A stretch of DNA of 64,000 nucleotides from Chromera velia (taxonomy: Eukaryota), in NCBI GenBank assembly GCA_018398765.1, contig JAHBMJ010000101.1, positions 1 to 64,000 of the forward strand, given 5' to 3'. The notes under the pieces were generated by a model, which made no database searches, was not told the origin of the DNA, and saw only the letters and a program-made list of their open reading frames with translations. Positions within the stretch are counted from its first letter, which is position 1, and each line of letters begins with the position of its first letter. Position numbers and translations under genes: made by a program. Positions 23,678 to 63,889 of the stretch are shown here, piece by piece.

Positions 23678-26124
23678 ATTAATTGAAGGGACTCATACGT
23701 GTGTGTATGCATAAATTCATGATGAAATGATACAGGGGAGTGGGAATGGAACCGCGTGTAAGGCTAGACAGCGCACACACCGGAGGGAAACCACCAGCAC
23801 AATCGACGGACGGATAGACACACAAAAAAGCAGAAGACGGACAGACAGACAAACAATACAGTAAGAAGCATGGATCAGTCTGTCTACCATTGCTTCTCTT
23901 CCTCTGTTACGTTTGCAATTGCGCTCTCTGTGTATTCTTTGTATGCACAGCAGCTTTGAAAGGATGCATGGTTTCTCCTTTCCTGCAGTACACAGGTCCC
24001 ACCTACTTTTTTCGTGGGTACTCTCCGTCCACAACATGCGGCCTTCCTTCCTTCCTTCCTTCCTTCCTTCCTTCCGTTTTCCTCTTTTCGGTCGTTGCTT
24101 CTGATCTGCTCTGGCCACATGCATACAGTGATTCTTTCCCTTCTACCTACCTTCTGCTTCAATGCTGTCTCTGCAGGACCCCGGACAACATTAGACGAAG
24201 GGCCGGCTGGCAGGCTTGGAGGGGAACTGAAGGAAAAGAAAAAGAAGGGTGATTCCTTTCCAGGAAGGAAGCTTGTGCGGACTCGTCCGTCTGTCCTTCC
24301 GTCCTTCTTTCCTGCCTGGCTTCTGGCTTTCATTCTCGTTTCTCTCCTTCCTCCCTTGCCTGCTTGCTTGATGGATTGATTGATTCGCTTCTGGTTGTTT
24401 CTGTGTGACGACACTTCACAGGTGGACTTGGGGGGGGTTGATTTAGACATGCACGGGTGTCGTTTTATCGGGAAAGGGAAAAAGAGCTATGTGTCTGTGT
24501 GTTTACAGCAAAGAAGTAGATCCATCAACCAACGTTGCTCGCCTTCTCTGTCTGATCGGTCCCTCTCCTTTTCCCTTCTGGCATCCTTCCTACTTTTCTT
24601 TTCCATTATCGTGCGTTATTTTTGTCTCCTGCCTCCAATTTAGTCCTCGTTCGACCCTTTGCTTTCTTCTGGTGGGGCTGCAGCATTCGAGAAAGGGGGG
24701 AAAAAAGGATTGGAAGACGGAGGGAGGGTTGAGTGGATTTTCCCTTTCTCTGCCTCTCCTTTGTCTCATTGTACGATGGCAGTTCAAGCATGTGAAGAGA
24801 CACATACGCAGAGAGATGGACAGAGTGGCGGTCAGAAGAGAAAGGAGGGGTGGGCGATTTGGTCGTCGCGATTTTATGAAGGCGCCTCCGTTGCAAGACA
24901 CTAATACTGTCCTTGTGCGCGCAATAAGAGAGAAAGCAAGGAAATGTGGGGTACATGAGTGAGGGAAAGGGAACGGGAAAGAGGGGGTGAATAAGCGTTT
25001 GCATGAAAAAAGTGGGAGTGGGGAGTGAGCTAAGAAGAGAGGATCTGTCTCAATCTCTCTTGTCTGGTTTTTCTTTCGTTCTTTTCCTTTCTCTCTGTGT
25101 GTATGTTTGTTTGAGAAGAGAGAAAGAGCCAGGAAGATTCTGAGAGATGTATAGGCAGGGGCAGGCTTCACTATTTAAACCCGTGGGTGTGTGTGTGCAT
25201 GTGCGATGTGTGAGTACGATATCATGTGTGCGTGCGTACGGCCCTTTCTGAATAGTCGACAAATTGACGTGCATGCATTACATGATTGATTCGGAATCCT
25301 TCGATCTACTTTTTGTTTATTCGATCGACAACCTTTGACCAACAGGTCTTCTAGCTCTCCTCTCTCCCCCCGGTTGTATTCACACACACGACTATTTGTG
25401 GATTCGTGAGCAAATTAATGAGGAAAATATCAGAGAGACAGTCAGATTTACCAACAAACAGACAGACGAGAAAGACAGAACAGCTAGAGAAACGGAGAGA
25501 CAGCTAGAAAGATCAAAACTTGACGTATCACTGCACGATCCATTTGGTTTTGCCTTTTGTTTACCCTGCTTTAAGCACAATAAAGTGCTCTCCCTCTGTC
25601 TCTCTTCTTCCTCGGTCTTGAAGAAAGGCATGCCCATGCCTTTTCTAAACACAGGCACGCACCTTTGATCGAACAACGCACACGCAACTCAAATTACTAG
25701 AAAAGTACCCGATCACCGTGATGGCACTGTGATGCCCCCATCACGGTTTGTTTCCTGCATGAACACAGGCATACATATCGCTGCACACAATCAAATTAAG
25801 TTATAAAGGTTTTCACAGTGAAAAACTATGTTGAAAACTAAGTTTAAAAACTATAAAGCACTCTACTGGGGACTCTAGTATTGAGCATCATGACTAGACC
25901 TGGATTCTAGATATATATATTTCTATCATATCATTCAATTCAAGTCATATATATTTTCTGGGGGGGCATTGACTTAAAGTTTGTTCCTAGCATCTGGCCT
26001 ATACGTCTTTCGTCTCTTCCTTCTGTCCTGGTTACTGCTCTCACTGCTAGCTCTCTCTCTCATGCGACCTCATACTTGACGCTCCTCCGTCTGAATGCCT
26101 TCTTCGGCATTTGCTAAGTACTTC

Positions 26125-26301
<177 letters not shown>

Positions 26302-26424
26302 CTATATATATTTTCTGAACTAAAATATAATATATAAATATATAAAAAAATATATTACCTCATCTGTGTCTACTACCTAGCATACTACCCATCATAAATT
26401 GTTTTGATAACTTCGATTGACAAG

Positions 26425-26457
<33 letters not shown>

Positions 26458-27109
26458 TTGAAATTTAGTACATATATTTATATAAAATCCAGGCCTAGCA
26501 CTAGGCCTAGCATCATGAGTATGATATTAAATGATAACATTGATAAGTGATAAGTGATTTATTAGTGCTTGAATAATACTGTTGCGTATGAGTAACATTA
26601 AGAGTGATACTAGTTCATAAGAAGTTGTTTGCTAGTTAACCTAAGCCAGGTTGTTTGTTGGGTATACTAGTAGCGCCATGCAGCCTAGCTGGCCTTATCA
26701 TTTTTTTACTATTTTAATTTTTAGCCAGCACCAGGCCTAGGCATATCACAGCAAAAAAAAAAACCTAAACCACAATTGGCTTAAATTATTATTTTTTTTT
26801 TTTTTTGCACAACACCTATAAGCAACACTTGTGCAACATAAAAACAACACTTATCAACACTTGAACAACAGTTGTTTGTCACCTAACATTGTCGGGCCAG
26901 AAAAAAAAAAATTAAGCGAGAACGGGCTTAAATTATTTTTTTTTTTTCTCTGTGATAGGCCTAGCACCAGGCCTAGCACCAGGCTTCCCTTGTCAGAGAC
27001 TTTCCTCCATATATGCTTTGTAACTTTATTCTTTATACAAGAAGGCTTTGCTACAGTAACTACCTAAGTCTACCTTTGGTAATTGCTTCCCATGGATTCT
27101 GCATGGTCA

Positions 27110-27630
27110 TGTCAGACCGCGTGGGTCCGAGATCACGGCGGAAGCAGTAGCCGGGCCTGGCGGGGTGACGCACGCTGTGATCCTGGCCGGTGAGCCGGAC
27201 CAGGACATCATTCATGATTGGGATTTATATCGGCACGGCTCTGTGTGGCACGGATGGCAGTACTGCAGGATCGTTGCCAGGCGTGCGTGCAGGAGGGTGT
27301 GTCACGGGAAATTCCTGACCGTTATTCCCGAGCCACCTGATTGATCAGATAGACAGTGAGATGTCTATAGATGTTATATGATTGTGTAGGTCTGTACTGA
27401 CATACCTTTATATGTTCTGTGTGCGATATGTGTCAGGGAGGACTCTAGGGTTACATAGAGTCCTACAGAGTGAGATTATTAGACACTTATTCTCTGAGGA
27501 GCCCGGCTCAGTCTCCGTATCGGTCCTGATAGAGACTGGGCCTTACCTATGAGTGTAGAGGTCACTGGGACCTGACGCTGGTGAGCCAGCCCCACATTTT
27601 GAGAGCGTGCATGTACGTGCTCGTTTTCAC
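27110..27630 (+). repeat. 5' LTR (521 bp)
   Basis: Starts TGTCAGACCGC and ends GTTTTCAC. Colinear with 42960-43480 at a constant offset of 15850, with 33 mismatches by hand count. Confidence 0.95.
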
Positions 27631-27648
27631 TGGTGCCATCTGAGGGAG
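27631..27648 (+). other. Primer-binding site TGGTGCCATCTGAGGGAG (tRNA ending ...GAUGGCACCA, His- or Leu-like)
   Basis: Starts with TGG, complementary to the tRNA CCA end, immediately after the 5' LTR. The tRNA identity is inferred. Confidence 0.7.
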
Positions 27649-30600
27649 CGACGGTTCATTCCGGCGATTACACTCACATTCTCACTCATACACCTTCCCT
27701 TTCACGCGCACGTGTATTCGTGCAGGTTGAGTCTGAGGCTCGCACTCCGATGGAGACTGGCGGAGGTAGAGCGCCTGAGGGCCCCCTACCATTACAACTT
27801 CCTCCCGTCAATGAGTCCACCATATGGATAAGATAGCTCCATGACGTGAGGATTCAAGTCTCCGAGTGGCGAGCGAGATCGGTGGTGAAGTCGTCGAAGG
27901 AGCTGGAGGCGGGGTATCGGGTTGTGAGCCTCGCCACCGCAGAGCTCTCAGCGCTTCGCACCCAGATCAAAATCCCTGGGTACCTCTCTATTATCGAGAC
28001 AAAGAAGCAGCAGATGTACTAATTGGAGGGGGCGGACAGGGAGATCTCTGAGGAGTACCTCAAGGCTTACAATGCCCGACCGTGCTCCATCTTCTCAATC
28101 TGTCTAAACAAATTGACAGAGGAGAGGAAGAAACTCCAGCGCCCTCCGACGGGATTTGGTCTGGGGGGGACCTCCGAGGAGGTTCCTGAGGACGGCGTGT
28201 TGCTGTCTCCACTACGGCCGGCTAAGGCTCCAGAAGCAGCAGCATCGTCATCTTCCTCAAGTGCGCCATTTTCCTTACCCCCTACTGATGCCTTTTCCAC
28301 CTTGGTCCCCTTCTCTGCATCCCAGGAAGCCCTAAAGGCGTATATGAGGTCCCTCCTCTCCGATGCGTTGGGAGGGGGACAGCTTCAGGTAGTTACTATT
28401 CCTAGGTCGGGGGAGGGTCAGACTGTGACCATCACTGTTGATAAGATTGTTGACAGTGTTGCTACAGGGTTGAAAACTGAGAATCTCTCAGAGAACCTGT
28501 CCCTATCCCTCATTTAAAACTTCGGTCAGCAGTTGGGGGCATCGAATCCGAAACTCAATGTCGCCACAGCTGATGGGCAGGTGGTATCCATCAAGCAGGA
28601 GGAAGGGACGGAGTCCGAGGGCAGGGAGAAGGAGAAGGGTCGTTTCAAGGAGGGCGGTGGTGGAGGTGGGGGGGGGAAATCCAAGATAGAAATCCCTTAT
28701 CTCTGATGGGAGGAAATCCTTCAGAGACCCCCCCGTAACATCCTCAAACTGCATGACTATTCATATATCCTGCTGACTAACTACTTTCTCATCTACCTTG
28801 AGAGGGAGGAGAGATTGTTGTGCACATGGTTGGTCCAGCAGGCAGTCATACGGAAGACCTTCAGGACATTCCAGAAGCTCCTCACCTACCTGGATGTCAT
28901 GATAACCACCGTCAACACCTACTGCCTGAATGGCCTCGTCCCCGATGCTATTTGGGGGTGTATGTTGGGGGGCCTCATCCTTGATTCCCTCCTCCACTCC
29001 TGGGGCCAGTACAAGGGGGTGGACGTCAAGTTATACCGTCCTCTGAGGAGGATAGTTGAGGAGTTTGCCAAAACCCCTGAAACAAACTCCCTCATCGCCA
29101 TATCCGGCCCCGTCTTATACTGACTCATGAAAGACTTGGTGGAAATGGCTACCCACATCACGGGGGTAGGCCAACAAAGCCAGAACGTCCTATTCCTTGG
29201 TCTGGCCCACGTGCTCCCAAGGGGGCACTCCCGCTCTCCTGCTCCTGCAGGTCTCAGAAAGCAGGGGAAAACGGGTGGGTCGGGTAGCCCTAGAGGCAGG
29301 AGTGATGGAGATGACCTCCGTCCTTCTAAGCCCACTGACAACTGCCCTCACCGGTGGAAGCGTGAGAACCAGCAGTTTTGGGGGGTAAAAAAGGAAGGGA
29401 GTAAGTACGTCTGTAAAAGGTGTGGCAGGAGTGACGGGGTCACTTCTGCAGGGCACACTCCTGGCCCCTTTTGTCACTGCCCCTACTATGATATGACGTG
29501 TGATGGCTGTGGTTGGTTAGGGCATAAACGCTCTATGTGCCCTGCCAGAGATCATGAGCACAAGCCAGGCCATCAACGCATGGGTGGGGGGGGACGTAGA
29601 GGGGGCCCGGGGGGTCGAGGAGGTGGGTCTGGAGATGGCAGAGGTGGCTCCCCTGGTGGGGGAAGAGGAAACAGCCCAGGGGGAGGCAGAGGAGGAGGAA
29701 GTGGTAGTAACCGATCGTCCTCTCCGGGTCCGAAGACCCCGAGAGGTAACACGCGAGGAGGAGGGGGAGGCCGCAGTCAGGGCCTCCGGCCGGCTTATGG
29801 CGCAGGAGATGGCCGGTTCAATTCCCTGCATGTGCTGGGAATTACCCCGGGGGATAACACGGTTATGTGCCCTCAGGGACCGGTCACCCTCCCCGACTAG
29901 GCTGTTTGCGATTACTTGGACGGTAATAAGGTGAACATCCTGGATGATTCAGGGTTCCCTCATGAGGAGGAGGTGTTTGATCGGCAGGTTCAGCCGACCG
30001 ATGGCGCCTTCTCCCGACATCTGCACGTGGACGTCCCCTGTCTCTTCGGGGGTCTTCTCATTCCCCCTCAGTCGTTCTCCACTTTCGGAGAATTCCTCGA
30101 CGCACATGAGGAAGAGCAGCCAGCTCTCTTCGAGGAAAATGACTAGGGGGAGCAGGTGCATATTGGGGGGGTGGATATCCTTTTTCAGCAGGTCATCCAA
30201 GGCCTCCCACCGTATGCCCTGCGTCAACGTGTAGATGAGGGGGAGAGGGGAGGAAGGCGGGTTAATCGGAGCGTTATCTCAGGTGCATCCCTCACGCGGT
30301 ACGAGGGAGCGCGGTTTGCCTGAGAAAGGCACCAGGCGAGGGGGAGGAATCTTACCAGGAAGGGGGAGGATCAGCAAGTTTGCTTCACTCGCACTGTCCC
30401 AAGTGCTGAGGCAGACTCAGTCATCCGATCCCTCTCCCGATCGACTGCCACCTGTGACGTCAGGGTGGAGTCTGATCCTGGAGACCTCCAACCTCGCAGA
30501 GGCAAGGATCGTATCTACGGGGAGAGTAGGTACGCCTCCGCTATCCCGCAGAGTGACACGATGTGGCCGTACAGGATCAATCCAAGGGTATAGGCGGATC

Positions 30601-32618
30601 CACAGCCTGAGGTCTCTGGTCTCTCTCTGGTTTTACGGCAATATGCTGAGGCTGCCGCCTACCTAGGAGAGGACCAGATGAGACCTCCCAGGGCCCGCTC
30701 CCTATCTGTCTTCAACAGAAGAAGAGAGGGGGTGCGATCTCCTGCCCCTCCGATCACCCCGTTGGGTGAGGAGGGAGTCCCATCTGAGCAGCTTGCTTTC
30801 CGTAGAGGGGAGCATCTCGCCCAAGAGTACTCTGAGGGCGTTTCCTCCCTCATTGAGAGATGGAGGGAGGAGGTCAGAAGGGAAGAGGAGATCCTGGATC
30901 CTGATGTCCTCGGGCCGAGCGTCCAATTGAATGACGTGAGGAGGAGGTTGTTTAATCGGATTAGGAGGGAAGCTCAGCAGCTTAGAAGGAAGCTGCGGAG
31001 GCAGCATAAGAAGGAGCGCTATAAATGAGCTCGGTCGTTGATGGAAAGGAAGGAGGAAAGAAGGAAGAGTAGGGAGGAGAAGGAGGAGCAGCAGATGCAG
31101 ATTGCCCTGCAAAGATCGCTTGAGGACGCTCAGGCGGTGGGGGGGGACAGTATGGCCATGTCCTCCTCCGCTCCACCACCTGCCCCTTCCTCCTCCAGCC
31201 TTCCATGCCCATTAGCGCAGCCATCACAGATTGTTGCGCCTGTTGCTGCCGCTGCTCAGGCCGCCCCTGAATCTGATAACAACGCTCCAACGCCCGTCGC
31301 GTCTGAATCAGGAGATGAGGACGATGATGTCCACCCCTCCCTGGCTGGGGATCTTGTGGAGCCCCCTGGTGGGGATCACTTGATTTACAGGAGCTGGGTA
31401 AATGTCCCTCCTATTTGGGACGGCTACCCAGAAGGACCTCTCGAAAGAACGCAGGCCCAGTTTATGGCTATACATAGGGAGGAGGAAGACAGGGCCATCG
31501 AGGACGTGAGGTCCATGGAAAGGGACCCTGAGTTGCGCAACAGGGTCCGAGATTTCGTCCAGGGAGATGTGGATGTGTCTGATTGGTCAGACCAGCACAC
31601 CTCCCGGATGATTGAGTTGAAGGAAGCCTACCTCCGTCGATGGGGTGGGCCGGGAGAGAGAGTCACGGTTGAGCCGCGCTCCCCCAGTCGTATACGTGCC
31701 CCTATGACGGGTGGAAAGATGCAGGATGGGACCCTGCAGACCAGGGGCCGCCCCTCAGATGGTGATGGCAGGATGCATACGTGGCAGTCGAGCAGGGATC
31801 GACTCGCACGCTCCTCTCCCAGGGTTGAGGTAGCTGCTGCTCAGTCGGGCTTAAACATTTTGATGGGGGGTGGGCCAGTCGGCCAGGCTGGTAAACACGG
31901 TAACTCGGCTGACTCTGAGGGGTCAGGTGGGGAGGAGGACATGGCAGTCTCCTCCGCTCCCGAGACACCTGGATGGCACCCGTCCCCTCTGCAGTTGTGG
32001 GGAGGTGAGGATGCCATTCAGACTGCATCCACCCATGCCTTGCAAGAAGCCTTCCATCATCATCATCAGCAGCAGCAGCAGAGACAGAGTTCTCTTGCCC
32101 ACCCGATCCGGGTCGTCACTGAGAACATGAGGGGGGTGCCTCCGATCCTCCACCCAAATCCACCAGCCTCTCGCAACCTGCGAAGGAGAATTTATGACAA
32201 TGTCATGAATTTCCCTGCCAATTCTACTCAGCTGTCAGCAGAGCTGAAGAGAATGGAGCAGTTGGCTGGACGATTGGGTAGGAGCCTCACTGGTAAGCCC
32301 AAGGACCAAGATGATCCCGAGTCGGATCCAGACGGGGGATTCGGTCAGGTGGGTAAGCGGGAAAGGGTGAGCAGGTGGTCTCGGGACCCACCTCGAGATA
32401 CCGCTGGGCAGCTTCAAGCCCGCGGTCTGGCTAGTGTGGGTAGAGACTACGCGCCAGGCATGCGCCCCGACTTTCCCGTTGTTGCACCAGATGGGACCGT
32501 CATAGAGGGGGAATACGATAGCAATCCAGAGAGGGGGGTGTCGGATCTGAAGGCCTTCTAAAGGGGCTTCCTGAGCCGTATCCGCGGGGTATGTTATCCT
32601 CCCAAGGATGGCAAACCT

Positions 32619-32672
32619 AGGGAGAACACCCAGTTCGCCCTTGTCAGGGAGAACACCCAGTTCGCCCTTGTC
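32619..32672 (+). repeat. 27-bp in-frame tandem duplication (AGGGAGAACACCCAGTTCGCCCTTGTC x2) within the polyprotein
   Basis: Two identical adjacent copies. Confidence 0.95.
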
Positions 32673-34002
32673 CTGAGGGGCAGGGGTGTTGACAGGGTCA
32701 CCCGCACGCGCACGGTGGAAGAGAAGGAGCCAACTGGCTTGGAGCGGAGGGAGTGGGATTACCTCGAGGACCTCAGGGCTAATACCACTCACCGAGTCAT
32801 GCAGGATATGACTATCCGCCCTCACCTCCCCATGTGTGAACTACTGTCCCCTCAGAGGGTGTATGTTGAGGAGGATATCACCCCTCCTGCCAGTAGTTTC
32901 GACCAGCGACGTGGTCGGAACAGGCGGGGCTACCGGGTCGAGTGCCTGAAGGAGCAGGAGTCCTCCACCCTATGGTTTGAGGTGGATTCAGCTTGCTTCT
33001 ACAATCTCATCATCCACGCACTCTTTCAGGCAGCAGATGCAGTGGGGGCGATTGTGTGGAAGTAGAAGCTGGACCCTCCCATATCGATCAAGGGGTATAA
33101 GGACTCCAGAGGAGATGCGGACCTCTGCGTCGGTATGATGTCGGGTTACTGGGACATCAGGGGGAATGGCAGGAATGCAGTGGTCCCTTGTGTAGTTACC
33201 CCCCCTGATCAGAACATCTGTGGAGACCTCCCTGGTCTCTTCACCAATGTTTTGGGGGGGGCAATGTGGATTGCAGAGCATCCCGCCATTCGCCAGTCCC
33301 TTATCCAGGCTGAGGCCGAGACCCGAGCCCTCACAGGACATCAGGGGGCATGGCACATTACCGATGCGACTGACCAGCCCCAGATTCCCTCCTTCGTCTG
33401 GTTGGAGCAGATGCCTAACAAAGGTATACCTTCACACCCTGTTCAGGCACTGATCTAGCAGCCGTGGGGGCAGAATAACACTGAGGACCCCGATGACTCT
33501 CGGTGGCTTGCATCTATTTATAGACGCACCCTCAGCATCATTACAACTGACGGGGATATAGAGAGAGCCAGAGAGGTGACGGAAGAGACTCAGAACGAAA
33601 TCTGTGGAGTCTCTCACCTCCCAGTCATGAGAGTCATTGTGGGGGGCCACCCGCTTGAGGAGAAAACCGGGAAGGTCAGTGAGGCATAACGAATCCTCCC
33701 AGTCCGTCAGGCAGCCCAGGTTCCCCGCCTTAACCATCGTCTAGGTCGGAAGAATGGAGCCAAGTTCACCTACTGGAGAGAGCCTCAGTTTGTGACGGAT
33801 GTGTACATTCTGAGGGCCCTCCATCGACGGTTCGCTTATGCCTTGGGGAGACGGTTTCAGAAGACGCTTGAGCGCCGAGGTGTTCCAGTACAGGAGAAGG
33901 AGGTTGTCGCTATAGAAAGATTGGGGGGGTGCCGTATATATCCTCTCAAGAATGCGACAACCCCTAATCTCCCAGAATCCTCATCCCAGAATCAGGATGG
34001 AG

Positions 34003-36994
34003 TGATTCCTGGGTGGAGGATTAGGATTGACAGCGTCTTCCTCAAGGATGAGGAAGCCACCCGCCTGAGTAGTGGGTTTATCGGGTGGATCGTGCTCATC
34101 TGTATGATGACTCGAGCCTACCTAAACTGGCCCGTTAAGTCCTGGAGGGGGATTGAAGTCATAGAAGCACTTTTCTATTGGGCCCGCTTCTTTGGCTTCC
34201 CTGTCATCATCGTCTGTGACCTCGCAAAGGAGTTCACAGATGGAGTGTTTCCCGCCTTTTGTGTAGGGTGGGAGACGTCGGGCTTTCCTCATCACATTTT
34301 TATTGAGGAGGCCATCCCTTATGTCAAAGGGCAGATGGGACGCACCGAGAGAGCCAACCAAATCTCTTGAGAGGCCCTCGCGGCCTACATGTCCGATCCC
34401 ACGAAGAAGTTCCCCGTGCACGTCTGGCACTTGGTGTGTATGGGGAGCGTGTGGGCGGTCATGTGCGTCTATTCCGTTTCATTGGAGATGACGGCATTTG
34501 AGGCGATGATAGGGTATGAACCTCCGGGGTGGATGTTGGGAGATTTGGCTGTGTTATCCATTCCTGGGTCAGGGATAGACCCCAGAGGGCAGTACGTAAC
34601 TGTCCTCACCCCTCTCTTACATGAGCAATGGGCGGTCATGCACCTCCATCCTCTTGACCGCGTGGAAGTGCAGCCGGGAGTGACATCCCACAGTCATGAG
34701 ATCTGCACTGTCCTGAGGGTACACGTGCAGCAGCTCTCTGTCTGTGAGTTCAATTTCATGTTGTCTTGGTTGACTCCAGAGGAGAGATTCAAGATGACCG
34801 TCCATCGGGACAAGAAAACGGGAAGGGAGAAGAAGACGTTGGAGTTACGGTCCTTTGAAAGGGACTGGGAGAAGTATGGCCCCCTCTTCAGTGGGGGTAG
34901 TGGTCGCGGAAAGAAGCACAGAGCGATTGCAGGGGGGCTTACCCATTTTGCAAGACTGGACAAGGTCCTGCAGGCTCTGCGGTATGTCCCTGAATCGGGG
35001 GTGGGCCCTCCCACAGAAGAGCTAGGCAACGGAGCGGGTAGCCCCACCGCACCCACCCAAGCTCCCGTTCCCCTTTGGCCTACACTCTCATAATATTATG
35101 AAGCTCCCTTCATTCCCGCGTTCCGTCAGCGTATCCAGCAACCGATTGTTGAGGGAGGGGATATTCCTGGAGATTTTCTTCAGCCCGGGGATGTCCTCGA
35201 AAGGAACCCCTCAGATGTTCACAAGGAGGGATCTAACTGGCGACAGATTTACTTGGTCAGTGGAATAGGGGATTCATGGCGGGTTGAACTGGACCGGAAT
35301 CCTGGTCAGGGCACCGTCGTGGAAAGATCCCTCTCTCCCTCCCAACGACGCGGTCCCACCCTGGAGGGTGATCCTCCTGTATCCGGGCCGCCTCCCAGTG
35401 GGGGGGTGGCCCCTCCTCCAGCTTTTGACTCTCCCTCCACTTCACCTGAGAGAAGTGATGAAGAGGAGGTCAGTCGAGGGAACGTGTATAGAGCAAGGGA
35501 TGATTCCTGAGTGGAGGATTGGGATTAACACCGTCTTCCTCAAGGATAAGGAGGCCACCTGCCTAAGTGGTGGGTTTATCGGGTGGATCGTGCTCATCTG
35601 TATGATGACTTGAGCCTACCTGAACTGGCCCGTTAAGTCCCGGAGGGGGGTTGAAGTCATAGAAGCACTTTTCTATTGGGCCTGCTTCTTTGGCTTCCCT
35701 GTCATCATCGTCTGTGACCTCGTGAAGGAGTTCACAGATGGAGTGTTTCCCGCCTTTTGTGCAGGGTGGGAGACATCGGGCCTTCCTCATCACATTTTTA
35801 TTGAAGAGGCCATCCCTTATGTCAAGGGGCAGATGGGACGCACCGAGAGAGCCAACTGAATCTCTTGAGAGGCCCTCGCGGCCTACATGTCCGATCCCAT
35901 AAAGAAGTTCCCCGTGCACGTCTGGCACTTGGTGTGCATGGGGAGCGTATGGGCGGTCATGTGGGTCTACTCCGTTTCATTGGGGATGACGGCATTTGAG
36001 GCGATGACAGGGTATGAACCTCCGGGGTGGATGTTGGGAGACTTGGCTGTGTTGTCCATTCTTAGATCAGGGATGGACCCCAGAGGGCAGTACGTAACTG
36101 TCCTCACCCCTCTCTCACATGAACAATGGGCGGTCATGCACCTCCATCCTCTTGACCGCGTGGAAGTGCAGCCGGGAGTGGCATCCCACGGTCATGAGAT
36201 CTGCACTGTCCTGAGGGTACACGTGCAGCAGCTCTCCGTCTGTGAGTTCAACTTCATGTTGTTTTGGTTGACTTCAGAGGAGAGATTCAAGATGACCGTC
36301 CATCGGGACAAGGAAACAGGAAGGGAGAAGAAGACGTTGGAGTTGCGGTCCTTTGGAAGGGACTGGGAGAAGTATGGCCCCCTCTTTAGTGGGGGTAGTG
36401 GTCGCGGAAAGAAGCACAGAGCGATTGCGGGGGGGCTTACCCATTTTGCAAGACCGGACAAGGTCCTGTAGGCTCTGCGGTATGTCCCTGAATCGGGGGT
36501 AGGCCCTCCTACAGAAGAGCTAGGCAACGGAGCAGGCAGCCTCGCCGCACCTACCCAAGCTCTCGTTCCCCTTTGGTCTACACTCTCATATGAAGCTCCC
36601 TTTATTCCCATATTCCGTCAGCATATCCAGCAACCGATTGTTGAGGAAGCGGATATTCCTGGAGATTTTCTCCAGCCCGGGGGTGTCCTCGAAAGGAACC
36701 CCTCAGATGTTCATAAGGAGGGATCCAACTGGCAACAGATTTACTTGGTCAGTGGAACAGGGGATTCATGGCGGGTTGAACTGGACCGGAATCCTGGTTA
36801 GGGCACCGTCGTAGAAAGATCCCTCTCTCCCTCCCAACGACGCGGTCCCACCCTAGAGGGTGATCCTCCTGTATCTGGGCCGCCTCCCAGTGGGGGGGTG
36901 GCCCCTCCCCCAGCCTTTAACTCTCCCTCCACTTCACCTGAGAGAAGTGATGAAGAGGAGGTCAGTCGAGGGAACGTGTATGGGGCAAGGAATG
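34003..36994 (+). repeat. ~1.5-kb internal tandem duplication of the integrase core and C-terminal region
   Basis: Copy 1 is 34003-35502 and copy 2 is 35501-36994. The offset is 1498, then 1492 after a 6-bp indel near 35092. ORFs 34389 and 35887 are near-identical. Confidence 0.95.
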
Positions 36995-39900
36995 CTCCAC
37001 AGGTCTTTGAGCAGATGTTTAGAGGCCTGCTGACCGGTAATGCTGAGGCAGTCCGGGCAGCTGTGGAAATGGGGAATAGATGGAGTCCGGGAGGTCCACA
37101 AACGAGCGGAGAGGCACAGCTCAAGGCTAAAGCCTCTCCCTCTCCTCCGCAGGTACGCCCATCTTCACCCATTGTACCGCATCCTGAAGCCAGTTCGTCA
37201 AGCCAACACGCTCCTTTGCCCACGTAGCAGCAGGAGGCCCCGGCCCCCCAACAGCCTCAACAGTACGGTGATCCTCCGGAGCATCACCGTCCTGTTCTTA
37301 CATCCCACCTGCAGATAGTGGAGTCTGTTCTCTGCCCTGTACCTGATTTCTCAAGGCGGGGCATTCAGAACCAGGTGGCTAGGTTGCCTGATAGACAATC
37401 CAACCGCCCGAGGCTGTTGAAACCTCTGATGTTGAATGGCTGTCCCTTGGCCTACACATCAGAGATTGGGCACGGGGAGAGGGAGAGACCGAACGGTCTG
37501 GCTGTTGATGCTAGGCAGCTGTGGAGGGGGTTCTGCAGTTGCCCTAATGGCAGGAGGAGGTTCTATACAGTGAGTCGGACCCGTTTTGATGACACCCTGT
37601 GGGGCAGCCATCTGCCGGGTAACCTCGGGAATAGGCACTGGTCCCAGTGCTACTCAATGATTCCCGAGGTGGCATAAGTCACTTGTAGGCAGGTGCATAA
37701 CTCGGCTAAGGTCCAGCTTCCATATGGGTGGGGGGAGTATGCTACTCCCTATCCCCGAGATGTTGTCGATAGGATTTGACAGCATCAGCCGACCTGAATG
37801 TCGGTGTCTGAGGACCTTGACTTTGTCAGGACAGAGTATGTTGCCCGTCTCCGTCCTAACAGGAAGCAGAGGTTTGATGCGTACTATAACAAGTACGTTC
37901 AACTTGTCCATCAGCTCAGTGATGAGAAGTTCCCCACCGGGAATGATACGTACTGCACCCTCTGTAGGGATGAGCACCTGGTCTACTTCCCTTTCCACAG
38001 GAGAGATGATCACCTGGACGGTGAAAACGGCTGTGAGGTCGCTCTATGTGGGGAGGCCCCCCACTCCTATCACACCGCTCAGTAGAATTTTAGAAATCTC
38101 AGGTTTCCTACCCTCCGCTATCCAGGATGGAGGCTGCCTCCTCTTCCGGCGGTCCAGGACTGTGGCTCCAGAAGAAGGGGTAGAGACGGTGGTGGCAAAG
38201 GGGGTGGGGGAAGGGGAAGTCCCCCTCCAGGAGGGAGGGGGTCCGGTGGATCAGCTGGTGGTTCCTCTGCGGGTAGGGGAAGGGGATCCTCTGCGCCCCG
38301 GGGAGGCCGGGGAGGGGGTAGCGCTAACCCCTCAGGTCCCGGAAGCAGGAGCCAGGGGCCAAGTCGTGGACAGAGGAATCCGGGGAGGGGGTAGAGACCG
38401 CAGGGGAGGGGTATGGTGAGCCAAGCATGCTCGTTTCTTCGGTCATGCCTCAAAGACCCCTCCACTTCCCCATCACAGAAGTCTGTCCGTTTCTCTCTCC
38501 CTGATTCTCCTGTAGGGGGGAAAGCAGATAGGGAGAGGGAAAGGAGAAAATAGAAGGCGCAGGAGTCCCGTGCAAAGGACAGGGAGGAAGGGGCGTCTCT
38601 TCGGAAGTCGTCCGTCTCTTCTGCTTCGACTGTGCAGACCGTGATGGAGAGGTTCTCCCCCAGACCCTGGGAGACCGGGCCGAGGCTCGCTCCCGAGGGT
38701 AATCCTCCGGACCCCTGGTGGCCAACCCTTCCCATCTATGGACTAGGTACCGCCTATGGGTTGGTCTACCCCCCTAATATGCCGTATGAGCCTTTTCCCA
38801 CCACGTGGACTAATTCTGCCATAGGGAAGGAGGAAGAGGTCAAGCATTAGAGGAGGGTGGGCTACTCCCCAACTTGGTATGAGGCTGAAGCACCGTGGAC
38901 GTCTGGGGGGTCGCACAAGCAGCAGGTGCATTTTGATCCCGTCTTTGACTCGGACGAGATCTCCCCTGAGCACTCAGGCCCATACACTAAAATAATGCCT
39001 GAGACGGAGCTCACTCCCAAGCCAGCTGCCATATCTAAGAAGCAGACACGGGATGGTTCTCTCGACTGGGAAAGATACTTCTGGCCTGGTGGTGAGGTCA
39101 CGGATGTTGACAACCCCCATGACTTCGGCACCTATGGGAGGGTGTTCAGCTCTTTGCGTGACCTTGGTTATGCTGGAGAGCCGAGCTCCCAGGAGATCTC
39201 AGCTCCGGAGTTGGGGGGAAGGCGTATGACTGAGCATGTCAAACATGCGGAGAAGAGCAGGATTGTGCATGGGAAACACGTGCACAAGGACAGGTTTGGG
39301 TACGATCCAGGTCCCCCGAACATGCCAAGTCCTCCTCCCGGTTGGCAGATCCGGTTCGAGTCCTTCCCCGACACCCCTCCTCCTCTTCCTCGCCTCACAG
39401 CAGCACCTAGGGAAGGAGGGTTCTTTGGGTAGCCCTCTCCCCTTCGTCTCAGTCCCGCCTTTTCCGTCCCCTCTGGTGCCGATGTGGTTAAGATCGGGTC
39501 GGAAGCAGGGGCAGATCCATGGCAGAGTGACTGGGAGGACAGAGTGGAGGAGGCGAACGCCCCCCCTTTCTCTTTGCTGCATTAGAGCAACCCTCTGGTC
39601 CCGAATACTGACAAGATACATCGAACGCAGGCCAGAGAGGTCATAAAGGGAGCTCTGATCGAGCGCAGAAGGGAGATGGAGGCAGTGTGTGTGTCAGGCA
39701 CAACGACGAAGAAGATCGGGATTTCCACCCTCCGACCGGACCTTTGGTCTGAAAATCCGAGGGATTTCAAGTTGGGTGAGTTAGATGGGACGGTCAGGAA
39801 GGGAAGGGTGTTGGAGTATTTTAACCTTGCAGATGGGAGGATCCCTGAGGGGGTCTTCAGCAAGATCACCCACTGCTTGCAAGTTCCACATCAGCTCCGA

Positions 39901-42900
39901 CAGCCTGCCGCAGAAAGCCTCGCAAACGGAAGGCAGGATGGGGGGATTGATGGAGTGGAAGAGAGTGGGGGGATCCCATCTGAGTCAGAGAGGAATCCTC
40001 CTGGTAGTGATGTGGCTGAGGCCACCGACCAGGGGGAGTTGGATGAGGAGAGGCAGGTGCAGGAGGTTGAAATCGACGATGTCGATGTTGTGCCTGCCTC
40101 CCCTCAGAGCTTGGATGGTCCGGTTATGTCCCTGTTTGATCAGGTTGTTGAGGGGAGGTCGCTTGTCCATCTGTGTTGATTGCCCTGGGGGGTATGTTGC
40201 TTCCCCGGGAGGGAACCAGTCAGTCGGTAGGCCCCCCGGTCAGAAGGGACCGATGGCAGGGTCCCCTTTGTCTCTACTGCCTTCGCCCAAAGAAGAAGCC
40301 GCCATCCCCTCCCAGGGATCCCTCACACACGCCTAAGCAGCCAAAGAACACTGAGGGGATGTCCAAGTCACAGAAGCGTAGCTTTCGCAGGAGAGCGAAA
40401 GCATTCTTCTCCTCAGTTCTCCAAGGAGCAGCTAAGATTCTTCATGTGGCCTCCCGCGCAGGGAACGATGGGTCGTCCTCTTCAGAAGACGAGGGAGGTA
40501 ACAGGGCCCCCGTGGGGGAGGTTAGGCAAGGGAAGGGCGGGAGGTAGGATAAGGGAGTAAAGAGGAAAAAGGGGCCCATTGAGATGGATGATGAGGTAAA
40601 GGAGACAGTCAGAGGATTCAAGAAGGGGTCCACCCAGGTCCCTGCCTCTGCTGAGGATGTGGCTAGCGGGGCCTTTAAGCAGGCCTGCCTTTCCGAGTGG
40701 GCCAATAACATCGTAGGCAACGATATACTCGGAAAGGAAGTCATGCACCAGCAGGTTAAGGCAGTGGTCAAGATAGGGTGGCGCCTCACGTGGAAGGAGC
40801 AGGAGGGGAAGCCGAGGAAGCCCAAGACGCGGTTTTTCGGCAAGGGGTTCACTGATCACAGGAAAGTGGACACCTATGTCGGTACTCCCCCCCTGTGGGT
40901 TATTTGTACGATGATCCTCTTCTGCATTTCTTAGGGGTATGAGATCGATGCCGCCGATGTAACAGCAGCATTTCTCACCTCAAGGGACCACAATGTCGAG
41001 TGCATTGGGGCCCTTATCCCTGAGAGTATCCCTGATCTCCCTGCTGAGTGTCCGTTCCCCGACATAACACAGAAGGAGTGGGAGGAGCGCCAAAGGAAGG
41101 CTGCCCAGTTCAAGCCAGGTAAGATCTACCTGGTAGAAATGGGGCTGTATGGGTTACCCTGCGCTGCAGCCCTCTTCGATGCCAAGCTCCTGTCTGTGAT
41201 GACAGAGTTGGGGTTCCAGAGGCTTGAGACTGGTCTCGCTGTCAAAAAGGATGACAGGGGGAACACAACAGCCGTCGTAGCCTCCTGGATCGACGACCTC
41301 CTTGCCGGCACAAAAGCAGCAGCACTGACGCCCCTGATGGACTCCTTAGACAAGAAGTTGGGGTTTGGCAGCCGTGTGTCCATTGTCCCAGGCAGTACCC
41401 ATAAGTTCTCGGGTATTGACATTGAGAAGGAACATGGGGGGGACATTGTGTTGTCGTAGGAGTCATATCTTGCGCAGTGCAATACGGACTCCCTATGGAC
41501 CCTTCTAGGGGAGAAGCGGCCCGCCAAAATCCGAGCTCTGACGTCCAAGGATGTGGAGTTGGAGGAAGGGGAGGAGGGAGACGCTCATTGGGAGGGCCCC
41601 CTGAGGGCGGCTCTCGGCACACTGCAGTGGGCCGTACGTCTCAACCCCCTCCATACCGTCTGGGCTTCCATAGCCGCCAAGTCAGTCTCCAAGCCCTCTA
41701 GAAAGGTTTTCAAGGAGGTGGTTCGGTTGATTGACATGTTGAAGGCGCAGAAGGAGGGTCGGAGGTTTTCTTTAGTGGGAGACACCCCCCATATCCACTG
41801 CTTCACTGACTATGGAAGACACGCAGCAATCTACACCGGAAGGATGGGATGGTTGGTCCGTATTCTCCCGGGGCCTCAAGGGATGAAGGTGGAGGAAGAC
41901 CTGTTTGAGAACTGGGTGCTCTGGCACACCGCCAGAACCACCAAGAAGATCTTGAGTAGGACGGCCGGGGAGTTGATGGCAGTCGAGTCTTGTGTAAAGA
42001 AGGTGGGGAGGCTTATTGTGCTGGTAGGAAAGTTGTAGAACTGCCAGGCTGAGCCTCCCGTCTTCATCCATATTGACTGTGGTCCTGTCTACGACCAGAT
42101 GCACTCTGGGGCGGCAGACAGCGATCATACGATGCAAGGGTGCCTTGACTTCTGCATCCAAGAGCAGAAAACCATGGGTGCCACTCTCCGGTGGATTCCC
42201 AGGAACCTCCAGATCGCCAACGTCCTCACCAAGTACGCATGGTGGGGACAGGAGCTCTCCTGAGGGAGAGCTCGGCAGTAAAGGAATGCCCTCTTCCCTA
42301 TTTTGATTGTATCTGTTATCTCCCTAAGGGGGGGTAATGGGAAGAGCAGGGGGCATGCGGAATAGGGAAGTAAGAAGTTCGTATTCTCCTCCTCCTCCAT
42401 TGTTGTTCCAGAAGTTGCAGCGTCAAAGAAATGAGCTGAAGGAGGAGGGGAGGGAAAGAAGAGGAGAAAAGGAAGTGAGGGGGGCAGCGTACTGAGGCAC
42501 ACTGGCTCCTGTTCTCTCCCCCCTGTCCGGTCAGATAGGGTGACACGCAGCAGTATCGTGTGCCCAGCCCTACGTCTGGAAGGAACGCTACGTCCGTGAC
42601 AAGAAGGCGAGAGAGAATAAAGGACGAAACGAAGATAGAGGTACGGAGGCAACCATATGAAAGGCGGGGTCATATTGGAATGAAAGGGGGTGATCGATGG
42701 AGATGGAGGTGGGAGTGGGGGAAGTGCACACGAGTAATGATGCCACCTCCCCCCATCGCCATCTTTGGGTTATAAAGGTGGGGGAAACCTGTCTCCTACC
42801 CCTCTGCTTGTTGTTTCCCACCCCTCCCGCCCGTCAGTTCTCGGGTTCCTCTGTGTTTGTATTGTGGTCTTACCCCTTACGCCTCTCAGCTATCTCCGAT

Positions 42901-42948
42901 CGGCTGGGGGGTGGAGTTTGGTGTGGAGCCGACCAGTAGCTACACGCC

Positions 42949-42959
42949 GTGAGGGGGTG
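42949..42959 (+). other. Polypurine tract (GTGAGGGGGTG) abutting the 3' LTR
   Basis: Copia-typical GAGGGGG tract directly before the TG of the 3' LTR. Confidence 0.8.
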
Positions 42960-43480
42960 TGTCAGACCGCGCGGGTCCGAGGTCATGGTGGGAGCAGTGG
43001 CCAGGCCTGGCGGGGTGATACACACTGTGATCCTGGCCGGTGAGCCGGACCAGGACATCATTCATGATTGGGATTTATATCGGCACGGCTCTGTACGGCA
43101 CGGATGGCAGTACCGCAGGATCGTTACCAGGCATGCGTGCAGGAGGGTGTGTCATGGGAAATTCCTGACCGTTATTCCCGAGCCACCTGATTGATCAGAT
43201 AGACAGTCAGATATCCATAGATGTTGTATGATTATGTAGGTCTGTACTGATATCTCTTTATATGTTCTGTATACGATATGTGTCAAGGAGGACTCTAGGG
43301 TTACATAGAGTCCTACAGAGTGAGATTATTAGACACTTGTTCTCTGAGGAGCCCGGCCCAGTCTCCATATCGGTCCTGATAGAGACTGGGCCTTACCTGT
43401 GAGTGTAGAGGTCACTAGGACCTGACGCTGGTGAGCCAGCCCCACATTCTGAGAGCGTGCATGTACGTGCTCGTTTTCAC
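42960..43480 (+). repeat. 3' LTR (521 bp)
   Basis: Direct repeat of 27110-27630. Confidence 0.95.
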
Positions 43481-44380
43481 TGGTCATATCATGCAATGCA
43501 AAAGCTTCTTTCTAAATTAAAAAAACACTTTTTGCATTTTAAAATCTTCTTCCTTCTCATGTTTTTTCACCATTCTCATCTCCGTTTTCTCTTTTCTCTG
43601 TCTTTTTTATCTTTTGTCATTCCTCTCTAGATTCTTTTTTAGTCCCAGTTCTGGTCTAACTTCTGGACTAGCTTTCTCTACTCAATTAACGTAGTACTCC
43701 TCCGAGTCTCTCTTAGCTATAATGAACTGCCACTTAGCCTTGTGAATGCTAAACAGCCTGAGTTCTGATAGGACAGAATCAGTCTATCGCAAAAGGGGCT
43801 GCCCCACCGTAGGCCCTACCGGACGACCTCTATAAATGCCGTCGCCATCTAGATCGTCATTAGCCTATATAGCTAAGCGCCCTTTTCTACTGTTCAAAAA
43901 ATAATTATTTTTTTCTTTTGTGGTTAAAGCCGGTGAGACAACCCCTTAATTGGGCTCTAACCAACTCGACTATGTCATGAAAGTTCAGTTAGCATCCATT
44001 CACCAGTGTGTGAATCACCACTAGATTCACCATCATTCACAGTTAGAAGTGTACATGACTGGTCACTGGTAACATGAGGCAATGCTGAGAGCTAGACCCT
44101 CATTTGTCGCTCAATGAAAAGTCGATCGCTTCTCAAGTTGCTGATTTTGTATATGACCGTTTGAGATTCAGGAATTAAGCCACCCCGGTCTGGCTACCCG
44201 CTTTTCCTTCCCGAAATGAAACCACATCAACCAGGGCCTGCGCTCACATTCTTTGTCCCTCGTTATCCTCTCGGCGCAGCTCCACCTCGAGCATCTTTCA
44301 ACGTTCTTCCCATGAGAATGTGGGCGGGCGTCAGCGAAAAAGCAAAATGCGTGGCCTTGTTGCATGGGAAGATGTCCCTT

Positions 44381-52976: not shown

Positions 52977-54643
52977 CTGACCATTCGGTGGCAGAGAACG
53001 AAAAGAAATTCAGCTGGAGGCGGCCCACCCCTTGCCGTCCTTCTTTCCGGAATAAGGGTAGAGAGTTTTGTTCTTAAAGTAAGACATGCGCTGGCGTATT
53101 GTATCATACTGGGCTAGATACTGGGCGGAGGCAAAAGTCTGACCCAGAAAGTGCAGCTCCATATGTTGCATCCGGCCACTTCTAGGTCGATCAACAATGA
53201 TAGATTCAAGTGCCCAGGAAGTATACATAACCGAATAGCTGTGCTTGGAAAGATTTTGGAATCTGTTTTCAATCATATTTAAAATTGTTACCAATGACTC
53301 ACCATCATGATAATCATACGCTATTCGATAGCTAATCCTATGGCTAATCCAAGTTAGTAGCTATCTGACGGTCATTGTCATCTACCCGTGATAGGCGTGT
53401 AGCCTGACTGACAGTGAGCGTTCAGCAGGTGATTACAGGTCACACACTAAGTTATATTATTATGTGGTAGTTTATAGAGTCAGGATATAGTTTTTTTGAC
53501 GAAGAGTGATTGGAAAGAAGTAGAGAGAAGTGAAATTAAGTAGTTTTAATTTCGCTCCGCAAAACCGTTTTCTATATAATTTTCCATATGATGGTTATGT
53601 TTCACACTTTTTTGAACAACTTTGAATTGCTCTCAATTTATCCCTTATTTAATCGATTTGAATCTATCCCTTAGACTGTGGTGTTATATGGTGTTGCTAA
53701 GTTGTTTTCAGTTGTTTCTAATTATTTCATTAGCTTGTGTCACATAGTGCTAGATAATGTTAGACACTATTACATGTTTATTTGCATGTACTTACATGGA
53801 GTATACTTGATCAGCTAGTATCAGCTAGTCAAAGTTAGTCAAAGTCTGTTTTCATTATAATCTGTTATGATCTGTTCAGTTAGTATATAATGGCTGTTTG
53901 GAACATCGATAGACAGATTGGCGTGCTCGGCATGAACTGTTGTGCTCCAGGCAGTAACCTGGCAGTTGTCAACAACTGCGCGCCTGGCAGCAGCCTACAG
54001 CAGCCCCTGTACCTTCGGGGTACCTACCCCGGCCTATCCGTGCAGTCCCAGGCTCCCAGCAGTCTCTCAGGGGACCGAGCTAGCTATAGCTGCGCGGAGC
54101 AAGGCTGTCATGCAGAGCTGCGGCCCCCCGAGACGCCGCCGCCTCGCTCACGCTCACACGGTGACTCTGGCGATCTCTTGCGATCATCTTGCGATGCCTT
54201 GCCCTTCGACATTTCGACTATTAATGCAAACTGTCAGCAAAGCCTCCCTCGATGACAGGAGGGTATGTACATTTGCTATTGATCGATAACTCGCCCAGTG
54301 TGAATAACTTTGACTCGTGTGGAGGAATCGGGGACTTTCGCTTTTCGTCGGTACTGCATGGTCCTCCAGCTAAGATCTAAAGGTACGGAGGTAGATGGGG
54401 ACCCCTTGACGCCCAGCAGATGCGAAAGCTAGAACGTGCCGACCTCTTCCGTGTCGCAGCAACGTGCTGCCTCGAAAAGATTACGTGTGCTGCCTCTTCT
54501 TCCGAATAATGTCATGTCAAGGTGCTGCATTTGTTGTACAGGAAAGGACGTGAATCAGTCTGTCGCTCAGTCTGTTGCCGCTACCGATTGACCCTCTCGA
54601 ATTGGTGTCCGTCTCTGTCTTCGTGTGCGCCTTCTGGTAAGTC

Positions 54644-63889
<9,246 letters not shown>

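What the first reader, a model, noticed from the sequence alone, without database searches (positions are those of the whole stretch)
27110..43480. RIP-like hypermutation signature (CpA->TpA plus CpG->TpG) between the two LTRs in an apparently non-fungal protist
The LTRs were identical at insertion. By hand alignment they now differ at 33 of 521 sites with no indels: 31 transitions and 2 transversions. Of the transitions, 13 are CpA/TpG->TpA (e.g. 27149, 27245, 27276, 27363, 27366, 27376, 27384, 27401, 27421, 27423, 27489, 27549, 27567), 12 are CpG and 6 are other contexts. Both LTRs and both strands are hit. CpA->TpA bias on repeated DNA is the hallmark of fungal RIP, while ordinary 5mCpG decay would explain only the CpG half. 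The inference is a repeat-targeted methylation/deamination genome-defence system in this lineage.
Basis: partly seen in the sequence, partly recalled or inferred. Interest (0 to 1): 0.88.

Follow-up and report, generated by a model that had tools for sequence, protein, structure and literature searches.

The report
RIP-like transposon decay in an alga
Retrotransposon copies in the coral-associated alga Chromera velia, a free-living relative of malaria parasites, have been riddled with one-way C-to-T mutations that favour CA and CG sites, likely because the host methylates its transposons, a pattern that resembles the repeat-destroying RIP defence so far described in fungi.

Summary
Observation confirmed exactly: the LTRs (27110-27630, 42960-43480; perfect 6-bp target-site duplication) differ at 33 of 521 sites, 31 of them transitions (CpA 13, CpG 12, CpC 4, CpT 2). 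The host is Chromera velia and the element a 16.4-kb copia. A 1.5-kb tandem duplicate inside the element repeats the spectrum: 82 transitions, 3 transversions. After normalising, CpA and CpG mutate about 3 times faster than CpC/CpT (p=4e-6), on both strands. Family copies polarise the changes as C>T (27 GC>AT against 1 AT>GC in proteins). Stop codons match neutral expectation, and a second copia family shows weaker one-way decay. Host genes keep CpA and avoid TpA. Two RIP hallmarks are missing: no single-strand clusters, and linked duplicates are not hit harder. One 920-bp polarised subset shows no context bias. Best reading (0.55): transposon-targeted CG+CA methylation converted to T site by site, like Zymoseptoria Dim2 'mitotic RIP' and Symbiodinium transposon CH methylation. 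True homology-sensing RIP 0.12; genome-wide mutation bias 0.18. Enzyme, methylome and the single-copy mutation spectrum were not tested. No prior report found in the library searched.

The parts
27104..27109 (+). 5' target-site duplication TGGTCA
   Evidence: identical to 43481-43486
27110..27630 (+). 5' LTR, 521 bp (TGTCAGA...TTTTCAC); carries 12 of the 31 T/A-side transitions
   Evidence: 7 of the 12 appear among the 40 rows shown, each with family copies carrying C/G
27631..27645 (+). putative primer-binding site (starts TGG directly after the LTR)
   Evidence: sequence; the function is inferred from the recalled PBS rule, and the tRNA was not identified
27753..35500 (+). first part of the long gag-pol frame: 16 in-frame stops in 2582 codons, no frameshift
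   Evidence: 16.2 stops expected under neutral C>T decay
34003..35502 (+). copy A of a direct tandem duplication holding the putative integrase core (motif identity recalled; no Pfam hit)
   Evidence: 38 T/A-side transitions
35501..36994 (+). copy B of the tandem duplication; against A: 82 transitions, 3 transversions, one 6-bp indel
   Evidence: 44 T/A-side transitions
40302..42260 (+). Ty1/copia reverse transcriptase (RVT_2) and putative RNase H region; 4 stops, all TAG
   Evidence: PF07727 E=1e-6, just under the gathering score; 34 of 34 homologues are C. velia proteins, most named copia-type RT
42951..42957 (+). short polypurine tract before the 3' LTR
   Evidence: sequence; function inferred
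42960..43480 (+). 3' LTR, 521 bp; carries 19 of the 31 T/A-side transitions
43481..43486 (+). 3' target-site duplication TGGTCA

Best explanation
Chromera velia copia retrotransposons accumulate neutral C-to-T mutations on both strands, fastest at CpA and CpG, likely because a host cytosine methyltransferase marks silenced transposon DNA at CG and CA (less at CC and CT) and the marked cytosines would then be converted to thymine one at a time. Shown: the spectrum, its direction, its neutrality, its presence in several copies and (weaker) in a second family, and the lack of CpA erosion at host fourfold sites. Inferred: that 5mC is present, that a DNMT targets transposons, and that conversion is by deamination (spontaneous or enzyme-assisted) in dividing cells rather than by homology pairing before meiosis. 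The practical effect is RIP-like: at about 5% of cytosines changed per copy, the gag-pol frame gains roughly one stop per 160 codons and is dead.
For: Per copy per site: CpA 7.2%, CpG 9.0%, CpC/CpT 2.6%, transversions 0.12% (LTRs plus tandem, after moving 4 double-hit CpG sites from CA to CG). CA vs CC+CT p=4e-6. Direction: 31 of the 40 best-supported differences have T/A in this copy and C/G in the family; 3 are the reverse and 6 are transversions. At 265 codons covered by at least 2 of 3 sibling proteins there are 27 GC>AT, 1 AT>GC, 1 transversion and 1 multi-step singleton, with equal opportunity (960 vs 969); siblings alone give CA 13/224, CG 11/140, CC 2/446, CT 4/248, p=5e-5. Neutral: 16 stops observed, 16.2 expected; synonymous 32 of 72, p=0.11. 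Second family (42 of 43 other C. velia copia gene models): 170 GC>AT, 30 AT>GC, 31 transversion-only, 40 ambiguous or multi-step. Host contrast: the polarised ratio implies equilibrium GC near 6% (upper bound 16%), yet host introns are 48.5% GC with TpA o/e 0.41 and host GC4 is 0.55. Fourfold C/(C+T) before A is 0.82 in host exons against 0.68 in the element (p=5e-4); before G it is 0.40 against 0.38. This pattern of CpG loss everywhere and CpA loss in the element parallels Symbiodinium, where CG methylation is genome-wide and CH methylation is transposon-targeted (PMC5890265, passages). Chromera has 5 DNA_methylase genes and Vitrella 0. No strand runs and Poisson-like spacing, equal loads across the four window segments (p=0.46) and equal stop density in non-duplicated DNA (14 vs 13.1) fit site-by-site conversion.
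Against: No methylome, enzyme class or direct single-copy spectrum. The 24 polarised transitions in 27631-28550 show no context bias (CA 7/120, CG 4/98, CC 5/157, CT 7/151; p=0.53); this subset is the top 40 of 284 rows and may include pre-insertion changes (27342 is T in both LTRs). Over all places listed for family contigs, Ts:Tv is only 186:79 (run X1; 17 of 135 contigs are under 90% alike). The second family's excess is milder (5.7:1, or 185:27 with 52 transversions under a stricter filter) and its CA bias is not significant (p=0.08). Its C>T load is mildly overdispersed (p=0.03) and uncorrelated with other changes (rho 0.06, low power), which is not what a pure clock predicts. Composition arguments can be offset by GC-biased gene conversion or selection, and TpA avoidance in genes is common. 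One of the 5 DNA_methylase genes may be the tRNA methylase DNMT2 (inference).
Confidence: 0.55

Rival explanations
1. Genome-wide mutation bias: every cytosine in Chromera mutates this way, and transposons show it only because they are free of selection; host GC is held up by gene conversion or selection.
For: No direct single-copy spectrum was obtained (the host protein has no other-strain member). All four C contexts are elevated. Host genes show CpG depletion as deep as the element.
Against: Implied equilibrium GC of about 6% (at most 16%) against 48.5% in introns; intron TpA o/e 0.41 and CpA o/e 1.13; host fourfold sites keep C before A (0.82). A nuclear genome-wide Ts:Tv above 20 would be far beyond values I recall for eukaryotes (recalled, not checked).
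Confidence: 0.18
2. True RIP evolved or retained outside fungi: duplicated DNA is recognised by homology and mutated by a RID/Masc1-like enzyme at a defined stage.
For: Ts:Tv of 113:5, one-way C>T, CpA excess, both strands, all copies hit. Mild overdispersion across second-family copies. RID-related DNMT4 exists outside fungi in diatoms (PMC9998398, passages). [quoted passage not shown] Many weak rounds could erase strand runs.
Against: About 92% of Neurospora RIP clusters are single-strand (PMC7296669, passages), whereas runs tests here are null (19 vs 19.8 and 25 vs 23.0 runs). Unlinked duplications are mutated less often than linked ones in RIP (PMC3318451, passage), whereas non-duplicated parts of this element carry the same load (14 vs 13.1 stops). 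CpG is hit as hard as CpA, and sliding-window RIP indices are mostly negative over the element. DNMT4 was not found outside diatoms in the MMETSP survey (whether Chromera was included was not established).
Confidence: 0.12
3. Methylation-free route: a deaminase acting on genomic transposon DNA, or poor uracil repair in silent chromatin, yields C>T with a purine-following preference.
For: All four contexts are raised at least 20-fold over transversions, and the process is strand-symmetric and unclustered.
Against: The preference lies in the 3' base (A or G). No clear 5' TC or CC preference of the APOBEC kind (recalled) is seen in the trinucleotide counts. DNMT genes are present. No deaminase search was run.
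Confidence: 0.12
4. Editing or errors during reverse transcription, or a chimeric assembly of different copies.
For: Retroelements can be edited as cDNA, and the assembly is repeat-rich.
Against: Strands are balanced (50 plus, 63 minus, p=0.26). Both LTRs and both tandem copies carry private changes. The target-site duplication is perfect. Copy-specific alleles are present in public contigs. Stops accumulate neutrally.
Confidence: 0.03

Closest known systems
Dim2-dependent mitotic CA>TA mutator of Zymoseptoria tritici (PMC8016269; abstract and passages)
   Same: C>T transitions concentrated in transposon DNA, a CpA preference, a proposed DNMT cause without need for a sexual cycle, and transposon inactivation.
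   Different: There more than 98% of C>T are at CA and CG is spared; here CpG is hit as hard as CpA, and CpC/CpT make up 30% of transitions. The host here is an alveolate and no enzyme is identified.
Repeat-induced point mutation (RIP) of Neurospora and other ascomycetes (PMC4858203, PMC7296669, PMC3318451; passages)
   Same: Almost pure C:G>T:A change in repeats, CpA among the favoured targets, both copies hit, open reading frames destroyed.
   Different: No single-strand clusters, no extra load on linked duplicates, CpG equal to CpA, and a low load (about 5% of cytosines). Homology dependence, premeiotic timing and RID are untested.
Transposon-targeted CH methylation with genome-wide CG methylation in Symbiodinium (PMC5890265; passages)
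   Same: Related alveolate lineage; it would predict CpG decay everywhere and extra non-CG decay in transposons, as the host-versus-element fourfold sites suggest.
   Different: Symbiodinium mCH is about 1% overall and 3'-biased, and the passages read report no CpA preference or RIP-like mutation load. No Chromera methylome was found.
Passive 5mCpG deamination in methylated transposons (PMC3318451 and PMC9246332, passages; plant LTR pairs recalled)
   Same: C>T excess at CpG on both strands, accumulating site by site.
   Different: It does not by itself explain CpA equal to CpG. Ts:Tv of 23:1 is far above the roughly 2-4:1 I recall for plant LTR pairs (recalled).

Membership tests
Fungal RIP | Near-exclusive C:G>T:A transitions in repeated DNA, polarised | tested here: met
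   113 of 118 differences are transitions; 58 GC>AT vs 4 AT>GC polarised
Fungal RIP | Dinucleotide preference (CpA in Neurospora) | tested here: inconclusive
   CpA about 2.8 times CpC/CpT (p=4e-6) but equal to CpG; absent in the 920-bp polarised subset (p=0.53); p=0.08 in the second family
Fungal RIP | Mutations in single-strand clusters per round | tested here: not met
   runs tests p=0.46 and 0.78, dispersion 0.5 and 1.0 in the two tandem copies; many weak rounds are not excluded
Fungal RIP | Linked duplications mutated more than unlinked ones | tested here: not met
   non-duplicated frame: 14 stops vs 13.1 expected at linked-duplicate rates; small numbers
Fungal RIP | Restricted to repeats, sparing single-copy DNA | tested here: inconclusive
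   composition only: host fourfold C before A 0.82 vs 0.68, intron TpA o/e 0.41; no SNP spectrum
Fungal RIP | Triggered by sequence homology regardless of origin, premeiotic | not testable with these tools
   needs engineered duplications and a cross
Fungal RIP | RID/Masc1 (DNMT4)-family methyltransferase | not testable with these tools
   no whole genome was available; the literature gives only a count of 5 DNA_methylase genes
DNMT-dependent transposon 5mC decay (Dim2-type or Symbiodinium-type) | Host encodes C5 methyltransferases | not tested
   5 genes listed in the PMC5890265 supplement; not verified here, classes unknown
DNMT-dependent transposon 5mC decay (Dim2-type or Symbiodinium-type) | 5mC at CG and non-CG sites on transposons | not testable with these tools
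   no methylation data accessible
DNMT-dependent transposon 5mC decay (Dim2-type or Symbiodinium-type) | Unclustered, both-strand C>T across the whole element | tested here: met
Ty1/copia LTR retrotransposon | RVT_2 reverse transcriptase downstream of integrase, paired LTRs, target-site duplication, PBS and PPT | tested here: met
   PF07727 hit just under the gathering score, copia-type RT homologues, LTRs and TSD; integrase, PBS and PPT assigned by recalled motifs

The most novel reading that the evidence does not exclude
Chromera velia has its own RIP: a repeat-recognising, methyltransferase-driven mutator that destroys transposons, evolved outside fungi in the sister lineage of apicomplexans and working in many weak rounds with a CpA/CpG target.
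Probability: 0.15. Interest if true: 0.92.

Novelty: new variant of a known kind. Interest (0 to 1): 0.66.

Why it matters
A 2022 review lists RIP as fungal and calls it the only known exploitation of methylation's mutagenicity, while noting that it may exist elsewhere (PMC9246332). A cultured alga whose transposons show Ts:Tv near 23:1 with CpA as mutable as CpG is a concrete candidate, and one methylome plus one DNMT tree would test it. Even the milder reading predicts strong non-CG (CA) transposon methylation in the closest photosynthetic relative of apicomplexans. Chromera has about 30 Mb of transposons and 5 DNMT-domain genes; Vitrella has 1.5 Mb and none. It also means that LTR-divergence dating in Chromera would overestimate insertion ages many-fold (inference).

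Tried and rejected
No whole genome is held for this window, so no genome-wide RIPCAL-type analysis and no DNMT or deaminase search was possible. I first read the internal 1.5-kb repeat as inverted (a meaningless alignment); it is direct, and was redone. A homologue search with the integrase-region frame found nothing. A metagenome scan for sibling DNA found nothing. A search with a host exon returned only the 100% identical C. velia protein in a one-member cluster, so there is no other-strain control. Runs X1 and X2 give matching contigs and are not independent strains; no single-copy SNP spectrum was obtained. No RNA holder was listed and run X5 laid nothing, which is no evidence on expression. 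P0003 was dropped from the sibling set because it has no differences from the window and is probably this copy's own gene model (one search included it in the opportunity counts; one search is the corrected run). P0035 (61% identical or less) was left out of the sibling analysis, and 5 codons with 2:2 splits were left unpolarised (all are transition-type). Classical sliding-window RIP indices are positive in only 2 of the 500-bp bins at or in the element and are not informative at this load. Paper searches found no report of RIP or a methylome in Chromera: Chromera velia + repeat-induced point mutation, 0 papers; + 5mC + DNMT, 0; + DNA methylation + transposable elements, 4, none on topic by listing; Chromera + DNMT5, 0; + cytosine methyltransferases + retrotransposons, 1; + cytosine methylation, 3 listed, off topic. 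RIP-like outside fungi returned listings that were almost all fungal. Chromera does not occur in the main text of PMC12695648, PMC5890265 or PMC9998398, in the 2 supplements of PMC11244446, or in the 12 of 23 supplements of PMC9998398 that were searched. The 11 unsearched files, the figures, the closed bioRxiv supplements of 10.1101/2021.11.30.470311 and subscription journals may hold DNMT classes or a prior report. The ploidy and meiosis search gave nothing usable. Three look-ups of earlier scan findings were empty. No tRNA genes in the window.
Full report
Observation. The two LTRs lie at 27110-27630 and 42960-43480, flanked by a perfect 6-bp target-site duplication, so they are the two ends of one insertion. 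They differ at 33 of 521 sites without indels: 31 transitions and 2 transversions. Per available cytosine the rates are 13/85, 12/59, 4/74 and 2/71; CpA exceeds CpC+CpT with p=0.005.

What the element and host are. The internal 15.3 kb is one long frame broken by scattered stops, with an RVT_2 hit just under the gathering score near the 3' end. All 34 homologues of that region are Chromera velia proteins, most named copia-type reverse transcriptase, and a flanking host exon is 100% identical to a C. velia protein. The genome paper gives about 30 Mb of transposons in Chromera against 1.5 Mb in Vitrella, with 3.7 Mb of copia (PMC4501334, passages and one supplement row). It does not mention RIP.

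Independent replicate inside the element. A direct tandem duplication (34003-35502 and 35501-36994) differs by 82 transitions, 3 transversions and one 6-bp indel: CA 34/216, CG 20/137, CC 17/296, CT 11/212. Four CA calls are CpG sites hit once in each copy. Moving them gives pooled values of CA 43/297, CG 36/200 and CC+CT 34/653 (p=4e-6). Per copy that is 7.2%, 9.0% and 2.6%, against 0.12% for transversions. Strands are balanced at 50:63. In the LTRs 11 of 13 CA hits fall on TG, which TG abundance accounts for (p=0.15).

Direction. Contigs of two DNA runs laid on the LTR and start of gag (135 and 123 contigs; the two runs give matching contigs) show many family copies. Of the 40 best-supported rows shown (of 284), 31 have T/A in this copy and C/G in the family, 3 the reverse, and 6 are transversions. 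Seven of the 12 LTR1 transitions predicted as derived are among these rows; the other 5 are not shown. Three sibling proteins at 84-91% identity over the aligned blocks (P0002, P0007, P0031; P0003 dropped as this copy's own model) give 27 GC>AT, 1 AT>GC, 1 transversion and 1 multi-step singleton at 265 codons. Sibling-borne changes alone are CA 13/224, CG 11/140, CC 2/446, CT 4/248 (p=5e-5). So the process is C>T and acts on other copies in the genome.

Neutrality and generality. Using the rates from the duplicates, 16.2 stops are expected in 27753-35500 and 16 are seen; synonymous changes are 32 of 72 (p=0.11). A second copia family (42 of 43 further gene models, roughly 40-55% identical to this RT) shows 170 GC>AT, 30 AT>GC, 31 transversion-only and 40 ambiguous or multi-step private changes; a stricter filter on 39 models gives 185, 27, 52 and 17. 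The direction is the same but weaker, and the CA excess inferred within codons is not significant (7/143 against 41/1820, p=0.08).

Results against a clean CpA story. The 24 polarised transitions in 27631-28550 show no context bias (p=0.53); the subset is selected, and at least one listed LTR change (27342) predates insertion. All places listed for family contigs give Ts:Tv of 186:79 in X1, a count that includes contigs under 90% alike. CpA is never above CpG.

Is it repeat-specific? No single-copy SNP spectrum was obtained. Composition argues for specificity. The polarised ratio is 58:4 (95% interval 5.4-55), implying equilibrium GC of about 6% and at most 16%. Host introns picked by eye are 48.5% GC with TpA o/e 0.41 and CpA o/e 1.13, and six host exons have GC4 of 0.55. 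At fourfold sites C/(C+T) before A is 0.82 in host exons and 0.68 in the element (p=5e-4), while before G both are near 0.4. CpG erosion looks genome-wide; CpA erosion looks confined to the element. Gene conversion, selection and general TpA avoidance weaken this argument.

RIP or methylation decay? Neurospora RIP is premeiotic, homology-triggered and mediated by RID/Masc1 (PMC4858203, passages). About 92% of its clusters are single-strand (PMC7296669, passages), and unlinked duplications are hit less often than linked ones (PMC3318451, passage). Here runs tests are null (19 vs 19.8, 25 vs 23.0) with Poisson-like spacing. Loads are homogeneous over the four duplicated segments (p=0.46), and non-duplicated sequence has the same stop density (14 vs 13.1). 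Two testable RIP features are thus not met, although many weak rounds could hide the first. Closer analogues are the Dim2-dependent mitotic CA>TA mutator of Zymoseptoria (PMC8016269, abstract and passages) and the Symbiodinium methylome, with genome-wide mCG and transposon-targeted mCH (PMC5890265, passages). That paper's supplement lists 5 DNA_methylase genes for Chromera and 0 for Vitrella; their classes were not found.

Mechanism committed to (0.55): a host DNMT likely methylates silenced transposon DNA at CG and CA, and less at CC and CT. Methylated cytosines would deaminate, spontaneously or with enzyme help, and be fixed one at a time, killing each copy. The spectrum, polarity, neutrality and spread are shown; methylation, enzyme and targeting are inferred. 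Rivals: genome-wide bias 0.18, true RIP 0.12, deaminase or repair defect 0.12, cDNA editing or artefact 0.03.

Novelty. The library searches found no report of this signature or of a methylome in Chromera; most subscription journals are not covered. A 2022 review lists RIP as fungal but allows that it may have evolved outside fungi (PMC9246332, passages). I file this as a new variant of methylation-linked transposon decay that works like RIP in outcome but fails two RIP membership tests. Interest 0.66; 0.92 if homology sensing is shown.

Noticed in passing
window 27110-43480: Very large copia element (16.4 kb; about 14.9 kb without the duplication) with one long gag-pol frame. It holds several Cys/His knuckle-like motifs (near 29430-29530 and 37950) and two possible protease-like motifs (near 29950 and 32990); motif identities are recalled, and Pfam finds only RVT_2.
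   Followed up: partly
window 27624-27630 and 43474-43486: Both LTRs end in ...TTTTCAC rather than ...CA if the perfect 6-bp TSD is accepted (the alternative is a 7-bp TSD with one mismatch).
   Followed up: no
window 34003-36994: The 1498-bp offset of the tandem duplication is not a multiple of three, so it shifts the frame; short microhomology at the junctions suggests a template switch. Its divergence (5.7%) matches that of the LTRs (6.3%), so it likely arose at or near insertion.
   Followed up: partly
window 16480-17070, 25800-27109, 43481-44250, 53060-53960: AT-rich intergenic blocks (GC 0.39, TpA o/e 0.96 against 0.41 in introns); the element sits in one. They may be old repeats eroded by the same process; untested.
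   Followed up: partly
window 32619-32672: Perfect in-frame 27-bp tandem duplication inside the element with no differences.
   Followed up: no
window 17070-17319: 120-bp tandem repeat outside the element: 6 differences in 130 bp, 5 of them transition-type, two at CpG; too few to test.
   Followed up: partly
six host exons in the window: Host fourfold sites are CpG-depleted (C/(C+T) before G 0.40 against 0.56-0.82 before other bases), hinting at genome-wide CG methylation or decay in Chromera.
   Followed up: partly
window 57560-63889: Host exon of an uncharacterised 1868-aa low-complexity protein (P0049) with no other homologue among the candidates scored.
   Followed up: partly
literature (PMC12695648 supplement): Chromera is listed without the 6mA methyltransferase AMT1 and with METTL4, METTL3 and METTL14.
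   Followed up: no
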